This document shows positions 1,252-61,589 of a stretch of 64,000 bases of DNA, in pieces. The stretch lies in NCBI RefSeq assembly GCF_009914755.1, contig NC_060929.1; one strand, written 5' to 3'. The stretch comes from the human T2T-CHM13v2.0 reference genome, Homo sapiens. Position numbers and translations under genes: made by a program. The notes below the pieces were generated by a model. It was not told the DNA's origin. It did no database searches and worked only from the letters and a program-made list of their open reading frames with translations. Within the stretch, counting starts at the first letter, position 1; each line of letters opens with the position of its first letter.

Positions 1252-1606
1252 CTACAGAGTAAGACTCTGTCTCAAATAAAAAAAAAAAAAACTTCCCTCC
1301 ACATTCATAAATATAGAAAAAGGGATGAAAGCAAGTCATTAAAATGTTAAGTTTTTATTATTGGGCAGTTTTTGTTAGGTTTTGGGAGAGTCTTATTTTC
1401 TTTGAGCTTTTAAAGATTTCCCTATTTTCTACCTTAAAAAAACACTTTCCCCCCCTCACATTTTAGGACAATTTTCAAACATACAGAACATTTGAAAGAA
1501 TTTTACAGCAAGGCGAGGTGCTGTGGCTCACGCCTGTAATCCTAGCACTTTGGGAGGCCAAGGTGGGCGGATTACCTGAAATCAGGCGTTCAAGACCAGC
1601 TGGCTA

Positions 1607-1814
<208 letters not shown>

Positions 1815-2124
1815 TTACAGCAAATACCCATATACCTACTACGTAGATTATACAATTAACATTCTATGACACTTGCTTTATTACCTGTCTATCCATTCCT
1901 CTCTTTCTCCATCTTATTTTTTGATGTATTTCAGAGTAGGTTGTAGACATCATGTAGTTTTCCCTAAATACTTCATCATGCACGTTGTTAAAATTCAATA
2001 TTGGTTTACTTTCTTTCTTTTGAGGTAAGATTTACTTATGATGAAACACACAAATTTTATGGGCCATTTCATGGGTTCTGACAAATGCATTCACCTGTGC
2101 AATCCAAGCTCCTTTTCTTCACTT

Positions 2125-2206
2125 CCCCTTCCCTTTCCCTCCCCTCCCCTCCTCTCCTCTCCCCTCCCCTCCCCTCCCCTCCCTTCTCTTCTCCTCTCCT
2201 CTCCTC
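2125..2206. repeat. (CCCCT/CTCCT)n polypyrimidine simple repeat
   Basis: Directly visible. Confidence 0.9.
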
Positions 2207-3216
2207 TCAGCGTGGGGCTAACCCATAGGCAGTGTGCCAAGAGTAGCTATGTCCTAATTGTTTTCAGCATAGATTAGTTTTTCCTATTATAGAACTTCAT
2301 GTAAACTTCAGTGTGTAGTTTTTCTGTAAGGCTTCTTTTACTCAACGTAATGTTTCTGAGATTTGCCCATGCTGTTGTGTGTACAAATTATTTGGTCCTT
2401 TCTATTGCCGAAGGTGGTAAGAATGTACCACTGTTTGTATTCCCTTTCTCCTATTGATGGACACCTGAGCTATTTCCAGTTTTTGGCTTTATAACAAAGC
2501 TGTTAATTATCAATAGTCTTATACATGTCTTTTTGTGGATGTATGTTTTTATTTCTCTTGGATAAATATCTAGCAGTGGCATTTCTGGAATTTCTAGCAT
2601 AGGGGTATGTTAAGTTTTGTGAGAGACTGCCAAACCTTTTCCGAAGTGGTTGTACCCTTTTATACTGTCACCAATGAGGTAAGCAAATTCCAGTTGCTCC
2701 ACATCCACACTAATCCCTGATGGTGTCAGTCTTTTTAAAAAAAATGTAGCTTTCTCATGGGTATGTAGTGGCACCTCATTGTGAATCATGTATTATTTTT
2801 ATAATCAGAACAAAAAGCTTTATAAAAAATAAAACAAATGATGCCAAGGAAAAGAAAGACAGGACTGGAAGTAAATGAAATAGGATTAATGGTTCACTTC
2901 TCTTGAATTTCTTTTTTGTTCTACTTTGCTTGTTTCCAAATTGTCCAAACTAAACTTGTATGTCTTTTATGTAGAAGAAAACATATTTGTTTATTTAAAA
3001 ACGTACCCACAATAGTTAATACATTATTCCGATATAATTCAGTGACATTTTAGTGGCTGGTGACTTTAATGTGACAACTTAAAAAGTGGTGGGTTTTGGG
3101 CTGGGTGTGGTGGCTTATGCCTGTAATCCCAGCACTTTGGGAGGCCGAGACGGGCAGATCACCTGAGGTCGGGAGTTCGAGACCAGCCTGACCAACATGG
3201 AGAAACCCCATCTCTA

Positions 3217-3378
<162 letters not shown>

Positions 3379-3380
3379 TC

Positions 3381-3411
<31 letters not shown>

Positions 3412-4069
3412 GTGGGTTTTGAGCCTGGGCTGTATTTAGGCCTTACTGGTAAATAGTCTATGAGATTGAGCGAACCACTTTCTTTGGGCTTTGGTTTCTT
3501 CCTTTTTTTGTATAAATGGATTGGAATAGATACCAAGTCCTTTATCAGTTATAATGAAAACGTATGCAAAACAGTAAGCTCTTGAGAAAAAAAGAAATAG
3601 GGCAACTAAGCTTTGGTTGGGAACAAAGGCTCACTGCCTAGGGGTTTCAAGCTGAGTAAAAGAGTCATTTGCTGTGGAGCCCATGGATGAGGTCTAGGGC
3701 CACAGGAGACTGTGGGGTGTAGTGCGGAGAATGTGAGCTTCAGTCAGATGGTCCTGGGTTCAAATCCAGACAAAACCTTCTTCTCGCTCTTCGATCTTGG
3801 ACAAGCGGTTTAATCTCTTTGAGTCTCAGTTTCTGCATCTGCTAATTGAAGATAACAGCACCCTTATGTATGCTCTTGACTTGTGTGTGTGTGTGTGTAT
3901 TTGAAATCAGAAAATGTTTACAGGTATTATCATTTATAGAAGTCCTCCAGACAGTATTTTCTCCAGGAATGTAGTAAGCAAGTGAGAGAGGGACTTGAAG
4001 TAGTGGGGAATAAAAAGGGACCAGAGGGAAATTTAGAAATACGAATTATGGGCCGGGCACAGTGGCTCA

Positions 4070-54904: not shown

Positions 54905-57040
<2,136 letters not shown>

Positions 57041-57421
57041 TTTGTATTCTACAATTACTATGCCAAGAGTTGAAGGGTCAAAGGAAAAAGTGTGATATAG
57101 AAAGCTACTTCAGGAAGCTATCCAATAGAAAAACTTCTGTGTAATCATAGTATACACTTAAAAGATGTCCATCAAGACCTTTCATGTAATGGTAGAAAAT
57201 TAGAACCCTTGGTATGCAACAAGATGAGAAAATTAGCATCCTAATGTCTTTTTGAAGGGGGATCATTAAATATGTTTGGTAGATTCATACAATGTGATAG
57301 TAGAATGTCATTAAATCAGGTGTAGAGAGGAGAGAGAGTGAACAGGGAGCGGGGCTTTTGTCTGTTGGTCTCCCTGGACTGAAGAGAGGGAGAATAGAAG
57401 CCCAAGACTAAGATTCTCAAA

Positions 57422-57628
57422 ATGGTTTATTACCCAGAACTCTTTGTCTGGGTCAGTCAAGAACCATTTCCAAACAAGGACATGGAGGGAAGGCTTCCTA
57501 AGGGAAGACTTCCTGTCCCAAAGGAAGTGAACCGCAAGAAGAACGATGAGACAAACGCTGCCTCCCTGACTCCACTGGGCAGCAGTGAACTCCGCTCCCC
57601 AAGAATCAGTTACCTCCACTTTTTTTAA
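57422..57628 (+). CDS. NREP: Intact 68-aa P311/NREP ORF within the retrocopy (expression unknown)
   Basis: MVYYPELFVWVSQEPFPNKDMEGRLPKGRLPVPKEVNRKKNDETNAASLTPLGSSELRSPRISYLHFF matches human P311 as I recall it; strong Kozak context AAAATGG. Confidence 0.85.
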   Translation: MVYYPELFVWVSQEPFPNKDMEGRLPKGRLPVPKEVNRKKNDETNAASLTPLGSSELRSPRISYLHFF

Positions 57629-58169
57629 TCGTAACACCTCCATTTGTATTACATATGGTGTATGGGTATTGATGAGGTCATGGTATCATATATGGGATTT
57701 TTTTCTGTGTAAATCATCAAGTATAAGAAGAAACTATGGGACTCTGAGCCTTGCTTTAGAGAATTTACAGTGGACAAATAGGTGTCATCAAACCAGTTTT
57801 TAATCATTCTGACTCAAGTGAAAACGCTCAGAATTTCACACTGTGAATCCACGTTTACAACCCTTACAGGTGGGCCTTCAGGCCTGGTTCGCTACAACAA
57901 TGTCTTCCACAACTCAAACTCCCACCGCGCTCACACAACCGGTCCACTCCTGCCTTTTCACTCACACAGCTCCCGACTGCTTCTTGCAGAGGCTGAGAGT
58001 CCCCCCCCCACCTTTTTTTTCATTTAGATGTAACAAACCTAGTAGTTTATGTTCATCAATTGTCTGTATATCTCTATATTTTATCCATGTACTCTTTTGA
58101 TGTATAGAAGTAGTTTGAAACTCATTGTTTCCTTGTGGTAAGTGACCGAGATGCTGCCACAGGACCTGA

Positions 58170-58189
58170 GACACTGATGAATGGTGCTA
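58170..58189 (+). promoter_or_regulatory. miR-29b extensively complementary (TDMD trigger) site in the NREP 3' UTR copy
   Basis: GACACTGATGAATGGTGCTA pairs with miR-29b-3p UAGCACCAUUUGAAAUCAGUGUU at nt 1-11 (one G:U), leaves a 3-nt miRNA bulge, and pairs nt 15-23 (one G:U). Confidence 0.9.
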
Positions 58190-59241
58190 TTTTGGACTTT
58201 CAACATGCTCCTTGGCGAGGTAGCTCTGATGGAGTTATTTTTTATTTCCATGTTCTAAGAAGGTGTTGGTACTCTGTTTCCCTGAATGTTGTTCTCTAGA
58301 CTGGATTGACTTGTTTTCCTTGTGTCTTCAGTGTGGCTTTCTTCCTCAGTGTTGTAGGTTGAGCGAATGCTACCAGAGTGTGAGAGACCATTGTCTCGTT
58401 GGCTGGCGCTCACGGACATGCAGTCACGGTAGCGGGAGCAATCACAAAACTGTAATTTACTTACCAAATCTCTTCCTTTCCGTAGCCTCGCCTGCCTGAC
58501 TTAGAGAAAGAAAAGCAATAATTTTACAGGCATTTTGAGGTGTCTCTTTGGGTTCTTTCTGTTTGAAAGGATATTTGTCGAAAAAAAGAGCAAAACCGTT
58601 TTAAATAAACTCCCCCTGGAAAAAAACCCAAAACACTGGCATCTGAGTAGGAATATGAAAATGACACCTTTTCCAAATATTAAATTGGAAAACAAGGTCT
58701 ACAAAATCATGATACTTTTTTAAAAGGCAGAGCATTCTTTTTTCGGCAATTTTGATAAGCAAGGTGTAGATTTACATTTTTGTCCTTGCTCCCAACGAAA
58801 TGGATAAACAAAAATAAATTACCATCTACTCATGGAATGTTGTTGTGTTAGCCAGTCTGAAAGCCCACCTTAATTTTTATATAACTGTCTTTAGCTCTTC
58901 TTTTGACAGGGCAGGCCTTGTTCTGAACTGTTTCGCTTCTGACTGTTAAACACCGATGACGCATGCACTGCACTTCTTCGTTTTCTTCTTGCTCCCCCAT
59001 TGGCCTGAGTTTCTTGTGCATTACTCCTCTCCCTCCTTCGTTAGAATAGGTATATCAGCTGTGTAAATAGAGCAAGAAAACAGTATTCTGCATCTGTGGC
59101 ATTTATGTAGAGTTGCAGTTGTGTACTGCTGAAAATGCAGGCTTTTGTAACAGTGTGATCTTTACTGATGCACTCATGACAAGTACCCAATGTATTTTAG
59201 CTATTTTAGTAGTATTTGTTCAATAAATACGCAAGCTGTAA

Positions 59242-59323
<82 letters not shown>

Positions 59324-59616
59324 ATGTCATTAAAAGAAAAGAGGTAGATCTTCAAGAAGACCTTGAGAAAAAACATGCTCTAATGTGAAGAACACATGCT
59401 TCTGAACAATCTCTCTTTCATCGTTGTGTCTCAAGCTTCTGCTGAGATATTCATCTATCCAGTTTATCACTCTCCTTGTGATGACTTTTCCTGAGCTGTT
59501 TGTATTAATTTTGTCCCTAAAAGACGTTTTGTCAATAGTGCTGTTTGCTAAATATGTCCAGTTCTCACTCTTCTGGGTGCACGGTAGGATTTGGCCCTGT
59601 TATTATTACATGAAGC

Positions 59617-60178
59617 TAATACAGAAAGGCTGGGCTCCTGGCTAAACCCCACCCTCAAGCCTGGCACCTCAGCGCTAAGTGAAAACAGCTGACCCTGATA
59701 CAGAGGGGCTGGGCTCCAGGCTAAACTCCACCTTCAAGCCTGGAACCTCAGCCCTAAGTGAAGACAGCTGACTCCATTTTTCCACCCAAATGATTGCCTG
59801 TTTGGTCTGCTACACCCCTATTCTGTGCACATAAAAAGACTTCAGCTGGCAGAGTAACAAAAAGAGGCTGATGCAAGTGATCAGGATACATGCTGCTGAG
59901 CATTGAAGACTATGGATAGACGTGGCTAACTTCAGACAGTGCAGCTTCAGGTAAAGATCACCTTCTTCCCACAGCATCTCCTTTCTAATTCCCCATCCCG
60001 CTGAGAATCACTTTTATTGCCCAGTAAAATCCTCCGCATACACTGCCCTTCAAAGAGTTCATGTGACCTGATTCTTCCTGGAAACCGAATAAGAACTCGG
60101 CTGTCAAAAAGGGCAGGTGCAGGAGGCTGTCACCCTGACCCTTCACTGAGCTGTTAACACTTAGCCATCCATGGACTA
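59617..60178 (+). mobile_element. ERV1 LTR (LTR27/LTR1-like), 3'-truncated, with a tandemly duplicated 79-bp head
   Basis: TGATACAGAGGGGCTGGGCTCCAGGCTAAAC start is present twice (59617, 59696); AGTAAA-type signal near 60024. Confidence 0.7.
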
Positions 60179-61589
60179 AACATTTAGTTGCTGGTGACAC
60201 CCTCAAGAGCTCTTCCTCTCTGCAAAGTAAGTGGCAATGTTCAAGATGGCAGCTACTCCATCAGCTTGGGTCTCTGAGGGATTACAAGGAACAGAGTTCT
60301 ACCACCCACTCATGATGTACATGTAACATGGGTATGAAATACGCTTTTGTTGTTTTAAGCCACTGAAATTTTGGTATTATATTGCAACATAACAGCCTAT
60401 TCTGACTGACAATGTCTATGGTACATTCCATTATGATGTCCATTTATTCCTTTTTTTTTACGAAATCTTCCTCTATTGCCCAGCCTGGAGTACAGTGGTA
60501 TGATCTTGGCTCACAGCAACCTCCACCTCCCGGGTTCAAGTGATTCTCTTGCCTCAGTCTCCCGAGTAGCTGGGATTACAGGCGCCCACCACCATGCCTG
60601 GCTAATTTTTGTATTTTTAATAGAGGCGTCATTTCACCATGTTGGCCAGGCCAGTCTCAAACTCCTAACCTCAGGTGATCTGCCCACCTTGGCCTCTCAA
60701 AGTGTTGGGATTACAGGCATGAACCACCGCACCCGGGCCCATTTATTCCTTTTGCAAGGCCTGTTCAGATTTGCTGGCTCCCTTTATTGGTCTCTTAATT
60801 TCTATGTCTCTTTTGAAGGCATGAGAAAATTCATCTGTCCTTTCATACTACCCTTTATGCCTTCTATAGTCTATAGCTCACATGCATTGGTAGCATGCAA
60901 AATACTGCAAAACTACTGTCTCCCAGGATTCCAAGCATAAAGTAGGGCATAGATGTTATTTATTCCCAAATTCCCAGACTTATCTGGTGTGTATGTGTCT
61001 CTATAATTTCTTCACTTTTGGACTACAGTGGGAGGGACTGAATGCAGTGTTGCTTCCCAGAGATGGGGAATCTAAGGCCTATAAAATTCAAGTGCCTCCC
61101 CCAAGTTATACATCAATAAGTTATGGAACTGGGACTCAAACTCTTCGAAAGCTTCCATATTTCTTGCATCCCTTCAAACTCTTTGCCCTGCCCCAGCACA
61201 GAGAAGTTTTTCTCCTCTCTTTGTGTCAATGAAAAGGTAGCCAAGCAATACACCCCTCCCCAAACACTTGTTTATGTCAGGATCTTTGCTTTTGGAAGGT
61301 TAAAGCTGAACTTTATTTCTCATAGTGTTTCTTCTGTGACCATCCTTCCCTTCAAGAGTAAAGGTTAAGGTCTTGTTTGAACAGAAGAGTAAAAAAGGGG
61401 AAAACATCAACCTTCTGATACAGAGAAACAGAAATAAAATGAAACAGTCCACTGATTAATTCTTCAACATTTTATCTTGCCATAAAATGGACAAATAAAA
61501 TGATTCGTCCTGCTTGGCTGGGTCTTGGCTCTCTTCCTATCTCATTGGTTGTTCCTTCTCAACCTCTTCCAGTCATTCCTCTCCACAAC

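What the first reader, a model, noticed from the sequence alone, without database searches (positions are those of the whole stretch)
58170..58189. Retrocopy carries an intact miR-29b degradation (TDMD) trigger
Seen: GACACTGATGAATGGTGCTA forms an 11-bp seed-side helix, a 3-nt bulge and a 9-bp 3' helix with miR-29b-3p. Known: this conserved NREP 3' UTR site (zebrafish libra lncRNA orthologue) directs miR-29b degradation, TDMD depends on ZSWIM8, and miR-29 represses collagens and DNMT3A/B. Inference: because the trigger acts as RNA, sense transcription through this insert could lower miR-29b in tissues where NREP is silent. That would make it a retrotransposed, possibly allele-specific miRNA-decay module. 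This is the strongest lead in the window, but it depends entirely on transcription, which the sequence cannot show.
Basis: partly seen in the sequence, partly recalled or inferred. Interest (0 to 1): 0.85.

Follow-up and report, generated by a model that had tools for sequence, protein, structure and literature searches.

The report
Young NREP retrocopy with passenger miR-29b site
This is a very recent, promoterless, reverse-transcribed copy of the NREP messenger RNA that still carries the parent gene's miR-29b degradation site only because it has had no time to mutate, and nothing in the sequence suggests that it acts.

Summary
The 20-mer lies at 58170-58189 (+). It pairs with miR-29b-3p as described: nt 1-11 paired, nt 12-14 bulged, nt 15-23 paired, -26.9 kcal/mol.

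The site sits in a textbook L1-mediated processed retrocopy of NREP (57316-59246):
- three introns removed exactly
- a 74-A tail
- a 14-nt target-site duplication
- 1931 of 1931 bases identical to the spliced parent on the same chromosome

Zero differences bound its age at about 1.6-1.9 Myr (95%). It is therefore human-specific and probably the non-reference NREP retrocopy already listed in a long-read survey that included CHM13.

"Intact" is the null expectation for such a young copy, not a sign of function. Two older retrocopies (chr7, chr8) keep the same 20-mer, so the genome holds four copies of the site.

The copy starts inside exon 1 and carries none of the parental CpG-island promoter. 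It lies in CpG-poor intergenic DNA with no annotated transcript. In human cells, silencing the NREP promoter matched ZSWIM8 loss for miR-29b, which leaves little room for retrocopy-derived trigger.

Verdict: an ordinary young processed pseudogene with a passenger site. The allele-specific miRNA-decay idea is untested and unlikely (about 4-5%).

The parts
57302..57315 (+). 5' copy of the target-site duplication, AGAATGTCATTAAA
   Evidence: An exact 14-nt direct repeat abuts both ends of the insert (sequence).
57316..59246 (+). Body of the NREP processed retrocopy (1931 nt), made of four parental exon pieces. With GT-AG junctions the pieces are 57316-57363, 57364-57424, 57425-57502 and 57503-59246.
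   Evidence: Every base is covered by exact matches to C5:112267521..112239636 (minus strand). The last exon is 100% identical with no gaps. The parental introns have canonical GT...AG ends.
57422..57628 (+). Intact 68-codon NREP (P311) reading frame plus its stop codon
   Evidence: Translation. The DNA is identical to the parent.
58170..58189 (+). miR-29b-3p site with TDMD-type pairing, 541 nt downstream of the stop codon
   Evidence: The 20-mer is identical in the parent and in the chr7 and chr8 copies.
59222..59227 (+). Parental AATAAA polyadenylation signal
   Evidence: It lies about 20 nt before the end of the match to the parent.
59247..59320 (+). Untemplated pure poly(A) tail, 74 A
   Evidence: The run of A spans 59245-59321 (77 nt). 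The first two A are parental (the match ends at 59246). The last A belongs to the target-site duplication.
59321..59334 (+). 3' copy of the target-site duplication, AGAATGTCATTAAA

Best explanation
A spliced, polyadenylated NREP mRNA was reverse-transcribed and inserted by the LINE-1 machinery into intergenic DNA on chr5 within roughly the last 2 million years. The insertion is probably still a presence/absence polymorphism in humans. The copy holds the whole transcribed unit from within exon 1 to the poly(A) site, so it includes the open reading frame and the 3'-UTR miR-29b degradation site. These are passengers: they are intact because no mutation has yet hit the copy, not because anything keeps them. 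The copy has no promoter of its own and no evident neighbouring one. It is most likely silent or transcribed only at background level, and it has no measurable effect on miR-29b.

Shown: the anatomy, the identity to the parent, the pairing, and the absence of carried promoter sequence. Inferred: the polymorphism, the lack of adequate transcription, and the lack of effect.
For: - Retrocopy anatomy: three introns are removed exactly at canonical GT-AG junctions. All 1931 of 1931 bases match the parent's exons.
- Insertion hallmarks: AATAAA followed by a 74-A pure tail, flanked by an exact 14-nt target-site duplication.
- Youth: zero differences give a 95% upper age of 1.55-1.94 Myr at 0.5-0.4e-9 substitutions per site per year (rates recalled). 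P(0 differences | 6.5 Myr) is 3.5e-6 to 4.4e-5.
- Undecayed CpG: CpG o/e within the insert is 0.43-0.49, against 0.05-0.33 in the flanking 500-nt windows listed.
- Likely polymorphic: NREP is one of 38 parent genes with retrocopies inserted relative to GRCh38 in a long-read survey (passages and section 5). Its panel included CHM13.
- No promoter carried: the insert begins at C5:112267521. The chr7 copy starts 58 nt further upstream. The chr8 copy carries an upstream exon from a CpG island (GC 0.70, CpG o/e 0.92 at -1000..-500). None of this is in the young copy.
- Flanks: no CpG island. An Alu inside an old repeat is followed by about 270 nt of unique DNA upstream. No Rfam family is found. The hub table lists no transcript over it.
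- Dose:
  - miR-29b TDMD was seen in NREP-high human lines. NREP promoter CRISPRi equalled ZSWIM8 knock-down ('most, if not all') (passages).
  - An ectopic Serpine1 trigger needed at least about 1000 copies per cell.
  - Predicted sites that failed validation were mostly in lowly expressed RNAs.
Against: No expression data could be consulted, so silence is inferred and not shown.

[quoted passage not shown] Sense transcripts averaged about 2 FPKM (passages). Some transcription of this copy is therefore quite possible.

The copy is a complete trigger with all of its conserved flanking context, its own polyadenylation signal, and the site in untranslated sequence. If it were transcribed strongly it should work.

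The human cell-line result bears on the chr7 and chr8 copies only. Whether those lines carry this insertion is unknown.

I could not tie the published non-reference NREP retrocopy to this locus, because its table of coordinates was not readable.
Confidence: 0.85

Rival explanations
1. One reading: the insertion is transcribed in sense from a nearby or cryptic promoter, in tissues where NREP is off. It then acts as an extra, allele-specific, ZSWIM8-dependent trigger that lowers miR-29b-3p in carriers.
For: - The site, its pairing and the whole conserved context are identical to a validated trigger.
- The site lies 541 nt beyond the stop codon, and a polyadenylation signal is present.
- New retrocopies in mice are often transcribed at low level, mostly in sense.
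Against: - No promoter is carried, no CpG island is nearby, and no transcript is annotated (hub table).
- Typical retrocopy expression of about 2 FPKM is far below the 'very high' NREP levels at which miR-29b TDMD was seen. It is also below the roughly 1000 copies per cell needed for an ectopic trigger.
- Two older copies with the same 20-mer exist. Even so, NREP promoter silencing already accounts for most or all ZSWIM8-dependent miR-29b decay.
Confidence: 0.05
2. The copy is a nascent retrogene. Its intact 68-codon frame is translated into a second source of NREP/P311 protein.
For: The frame, the 5' UTR (106 nt upstream of the ATG) and the 3' UTR are all identical to the parent.
Against: It faces the same lack of a promoter and of transcript evidence. 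An intact frame is expected at zero divergence. Of the older copies, chr7 keeps the frame with 3 amino-acid changes and chr8 is frameshifted after residue 8. This gives no consistent sign of coding constraint.
Confidence: 0.03
3. The insert is an assembly or cDNA-contamination artefact and not a real genomic insertion.
For: It is 100% identical to a spliced mRNA and has a long pure A tail.
Against: An exact 14-nt target-site duplication abuts both ends inside otherwise continuous chromosomal sequence. This is the signature of target-primed reverse transcription, not of contamination. An NREP retrocopy absent from GRCh38 was also called independently from long-read assemblies.
Confidence: 0.01

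Closest known systems
The miR-29b TDMD site in the NREP 3' UTR (zebrafish libra orthologue)
   Same: The 20-mer is identical, and so is the whole 1744-nt last exon around it. The pairing is as published: extensive 5' and 3' complementarity with a central 3-nt mismatch, specific for miR-29b over 29a and 29c (passages; computed).
   Different: The parental site is transcribed from a CpG-island or proximal promoter at high level in neurons and mesenchymal cells (passages). This copy has neither promoter nor any transcript evidence. I did not see the primary paper (Bitetti et al. 2018). It is known here only through reviews and reference lists.
Polymorphic processed pseudogenes of humans (GRIPs, retroCNVs)
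   Same: It shows intron loss, a poly(A) tail, a target-site duplication and near-zero divergence. NREP is named as a parent gene with a retrocopy inserted relative to GRCh38.
   Different: Expressed examples are mostly those inserted into introns of host genes, where they form chimeric transcripts (passages). This one is intergenic.
Older NREP retrocopies at C7:23617065-23618979 and C8:54090011-54091875
   Same: Both are intronless NREP copies with an unchanged miR-29b 20-mer.
   Different: They have 56 substitutions in 1912 aligned nt and 46 in 1867. They derive from transcripts with longer or alternative 5' ends. The chr8 reading frame is broken.
Pseudogene transcripts as miRNA decoys (PTENP1 type)
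   Same: A pseudogene inherits the parent's 3'-UTR miRNA sites and could act as RNA.
   Different: That model is stoichiometric sponging by an expressed pseudogene. Here the site would destroy the miRNA, and expression is not shown. I know the PTENP1 work from recall and saw it only as a reference-list entry.

Membership tests
L1-mediated processed pseudogene (retrocopy) | Introns removed precisely at the parental splice junctions | tested here: met
   Four exact exon pieces cover 1931 of 1931 nt. The parental introns begin with GT and end with AG.
L1-mediated processed pseudogene (retrocopy) | Poly(A) tail at the mRNA cleavage site, downstream of the polyadenylation signal | tested here: met
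   AATAAA lies at 59222-59227 and 74 untemplated A at 59247-59320.
L1-mediated processed pseudogene (retrocopy) | Target-site duplication flanking the insert | tested here: met
   The 14-nt AGAATGTCATTAAA lies at 57302-57315 and at 59321-59334.
L1-mediated processed pseudogene (retrocopy) | Insertion at an L1 endonuclease-like site (consensus TTTT/AA, recalled) | tested here: inconclusive
   Read, the bottom strand at the nick reads TTCT/AC, which is 4 of 6 consensus positions. The boundary is ambiguous by one A.
Polymorphic retrocopy (GRIP / retroCNV) | Present in some human genomes and absent from others at the same site | not testable with these tools
   Only one human genome is held. Indirect support: zero divergence, and NREP listed among retrocopies inserted relative to GRCh38 with CHM13 in the panel. 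The coordinates table was not readable.
TDMD trigger RNA | Seed pairing plus extensive 3' pairing with a central bulge or mismatch | tested here: met
   nt 1-11 and nt 15-23 are paired and nt 12-14 are unpaired, at -26.9 kcal/mol.
TDMD trigger RNA | Site in untranslated sequence within its conserved flanking context | tested here: met
   The site lies 541 nt after the stop codon. The flanks are identical to the parent. The importance of context comes from the review passage.
TDMD trigger RNA | Transcribed at a physiological level sufficient to lower the miRNA | not testable with these tools
   No expression data are available. No promoter is carried, no CpG island is nearby and no transcript is annotated (hub table).
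TDMD trigger RNA | miRNA rises on loss of the site or RNA, and the effect depends on ZSWIM8 | not testable with these tools
   This is shown only for the parental NREP transcript (passages).

The most novel reading that the evidence does not exclude
Humans may carry a natural presence/absence polymorphism of a complete, sequence-identical second copy of a validated TDMD trigger. Suppose the copy is transcribed at an adequate level in some setting where NREP is off, such as germ line, early embryo or hypomethylated tumours. Carriers would then show a lower miR-29b-3p to miR-29a/c ratio and de-repressed miR-29 targets. That would be the first retrocopy-borne TDMD trigger and the first germline structural variant known to act through miRNA decay.
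Probability: 0.04. Interest if true: 0.7.

Novelty: already known. Interest (0 to 1): 0.2.

Why it matters
As biology it is most likely inert. Two practical points follow.

1. The insert is identical to spliced NREP mRNA over 1931 nt, and two further copies share the 20-mer. Short-read RNA-seq, CLIP/CLASH chimeras, qPCR amplicons and guides or oligonucleotides aimed at the NREP miR-29b site cannot tell the copies apart. One CLASH pipeline discards pseudogenes outright. The mouse study notes that zero-divergence retrocopies cannot be quantified. Editing the NREP site in human cells will also hit chr7, chr8 and, in carriers, this locus.

2. If the insertion is polymorphic, it offers a cheap natural test of whether a promoterless trigger copy has any effect on miR-29b.

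Tried and rejected
- The journal version of the long-read retrocopy survey is not held.
I therefore could not see the insertion coordinates and carrier list of the published NREP retrocopy, or the gene lists of the 2013 retroCNV study.
- Literature searches that gave little:
  - 'NREP' + 'processed pseudogene' + 'polymorphic' found 0 papers.
  - 'C5orf13' + 'retrotransposition' found 1 unrelated paper.
  - 'NREP' + 'retrocopy' found 1 paper, which I used.
  - 'TDMD' + 'pseudogene' + 'trigger' found 20 papers, of which 15 were listed. I opened two, and neither describes a retrocopy-borne trigger.
- Rfam found no family in 56000-60500.
- Duplex energy proved a poor chance control, and the loose architecture criterion is not very rare (7 of 300). 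The exact 20-mer and its inheritance from the parent are what count.
- I tested whether the older copies conserve the site region more than the rest.
  - chr7 shows no depletion (P 0.31-0.37).
  - chr8 has 1 substitution against 5.4 expected within ±100 nt, and 4 against 10.3 within ±200 nt (P 0.027 and 0.022).
  - These are six uncorrected tests. They are also confounded, because divergence is measured against a parent that is itself most conserved there. I rejected this as evidence of selection.
One term set found nothing in the review.

Full report
**1. The observation**

The 20-mer GACACTGATGAATGGTGCTA is at window 58170-58189 on the + strand. It occurs once, and it appeared in none of 100 dinucleotide-preserving shuffles.

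To avoid using a remembered miRNA sequence, I located the four mir-29 hairpins of this same genome with Rfam RF00074. I then cut the 3' arms out of those loci. The arm lengths are recalled from miRBase.

miR-29c gives -20.9 and miR-29a gives -18.6, each with a shorter 3' helix. Two of the 20 pairs are G:U wobbles.

Looser chance controls are less impressive. A seed 7-mer with 8 or more contiguous 3' pairs arose in 7 of 300 simulated windows. The lowest energy among 100 simulated windows equalled the site's own scan value of -26.3. Chance is beside the point, however, because the site is inherited.

**2. What the surrounding sequence is**

A search of the window's own genome with 57316-59246 found the parental NREP gene on the same chromosome. 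Walking along the insert, every one of its 1931 bases is covered by four exact matches. These are consecutive parental exon pieces running from C5:112267521 to C5:112239636 on the minus strand. The last exon shows no mismatch or gap.

The three parental introns have canonical GT...AG ends and are removed exactly. Other features:
- The parental AATAAA sits at 59222-59227.
- The match ends at 59246 and is followed by 74 untemplated A.
- An exact 14-nt direct repeat, AGAATGTCATTAAA, abuts both ends, at 57302-57315 and 59321-59334.
- The 68-codon NREP frame is intact, and the site lies 541 nt beyond its stop codon.

This is a textbook product of LINE-1 target-primed reverse transcription. The nick site reads TTCT/AC, a loose fit to the recalled TTTT/AA consensus.

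**3. Age and polymorphism**

There are zero differences in 1931 nt. At recalled human rates of 0.4-0.5e-9 per site per year on both lineages, the 95% upper bound on age is 1.55-1.94 Myr. The probability of zero differences after 6.5 Myr is 3.5e-6 to 4.4e-5. The pure 74-A tail and the undecayed CpG content of the insert agree with this. CpG o/e is 0.43-0.49 inside the insert, against 0.05-0.33 in the flanking windows.

A long-read survey lists NREP among 38 parent genes with retrocopies inserted relative to GRCh38 (preprint passages and section 5). CHM13 was in its assembly panel. Identity with that published insertion is therefore likely but not shown.

**4. The copy is not unique in carrying the site**

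The genome holds exactly four places that match the 20-mer with at most one mismatch, and all four are exact. They are the parent, this copy, and retrocopies at C7:23617904 and C8:54090800. The reversed control pattern found none.

| Copy | Substitutions / aligned nt | Reading frame | 5' end |
|---|---|---|---|
| chr7 | 56 / 1912 | intact, 3 amino-acid changes | 58 nt further upstream than the young copy |
| chr8 | 46 / 1867 | frameshifted after residue 8 | carries an upstream alternative exon |

A fourth, fragmentary copy on chr4 lacks the region of the site.

Retention of the 20-mer in the two old copies is not significant. The expected probability is roughly 0.55 and 0.61 from their substitution rates. 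The mild dearth of changes around the site in chr8 (P about 0.02 before correction for six tests) is confounded by the parent's own conservation there.

**5. Can it be transcribed?**

The insert starts at C5:112267521. The chr7 copy begins 58 nt further upstream. The chr8 copy carries an upstream exon (C5:112268065-112267929) spliced in 4 nt inside the young copy's start. That exon lies in a CpG island, with GC 0.70 and CpG o/e 0.92 at -1000 to -500. The young copy therefore holds only transcribed sequence and none of either parental promoter.

Its surroundings offer nothing obvious:
- The flanks are CpG-poor.
- Upstream lies an Alu (about 56590-56910) inside an old repeat that is 77-79% identical to its relatives, followed by about 270 nt of unique DNA.
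- Rfam finds nothing.
- The hub table lists no transcript over the insert, and the nearest listed enhancers are more than 35 kb away.

Against a flat 'silent' verdict, 55 of 59 measurable polymorphic retrocopies in house mice were expressed somewhere. They were mostly in sense and averaged about 2 FPKM (passages). I put the chance of detectable sense RNA somewhere at perhaps one in three.

**6. Would that be enough?**

The literature seen says that dose matters.
- In human breast lines, ZSWIM8-dependent stabilisation of miR-29b-3p tracked 'very high' NREP expression. CRISPRi of NREP raised miR-29b-3p about as much as ZSWIM8 knock-down, 'most, if not all' of the effect (passages).
- Promoter-directed CRISPRi should not silence unlinked retrocopies. 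This is my inference. If so, the chr7 and chr8 copies contribute little there. Whether those lines carry the young copy is unknown.
- An ectopic Serpine1 trigger needed at least about 1000 copies per cell.
- Predicted sites that failed validation were mainly in lowly expressed RNAs.

**7. Comparison with what is known**

The Nrep/libra site is a perfectly conserved 20-nt element with a central 3-nt mismatch. It is specific for miR-29b and ZSWIM8-dependent, and miR-29b targets include collagens. DNMT3A/B as targets rests on recall.

The element is a member of the processed-pseudogene class: four features were tested and met, and one was inconclusive. It has the sequence features of a TDMD trigger but none of the functional ones, which cannot be tested here. 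I found no paper describing a retrocopy-borne TDMD trigger in the searches.

**8. Verdict**

The feature is an annotated, very young, probably polymorphic NREP processed pseudogene whose miR-29b site is a passenger. The allele-specific miRNA-decay idea remains a cheap hypothesis to test in population data, with odds of about 4-5%. The practical consequence is ambiguity of reads, primers and guides between NREP and its three site-bearing copies.

Noticed in passing
L003 (G000:C7:23615565-23620479), match at locus 1501-3434: An older NREP retrocopy on chr7 has 56 substitutions in 1912 aligned nt. Its miR-29b 20-mer is unchanged and its 68-codon frame is still open, with three amino-acid changes (V9L, R38Y, P51L). 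Its 5' end reaches 58 nt further upstream in parental exon 1 than the young copy, and an Alu lies directly upstream.
   Followed up: partly
L004 (G000:C8:54088511-54093375), match at locus about 1355-3379: An older NREP retrocopy on chr8 derives from a different isoform. A 137-nt CpG-rich upstream exon (parent C5:112268065-112267929) is spliced 4 nt inside the young copy's start. It has its own target-site duplication (TTAAAGCATGATT). The miR-29b 20-mer is unchanged, and the reading frame is shifted after residue 8.
   Followed up: partly
L005-L007 (G000:C4:37772477-37777588): A fragmentary NREP retrocopy on chr4 is 80-94% identical to the young copy. It lacks the equivalent of window 57492-58236, which includes the miR-29b site. 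It is also interrupted by about 870 nt of other sequence near the equivalent of window 58950.
   Followed up: no
window 56300-57046: An Alu (about 56590-56910, 88-93% identical to many genomic copies) sits inside an older repeat that is 77-79% identical to its relatives. The 270 nt between that repeat and the retrocopy have no other match in the genome search.
   Followed up: partly
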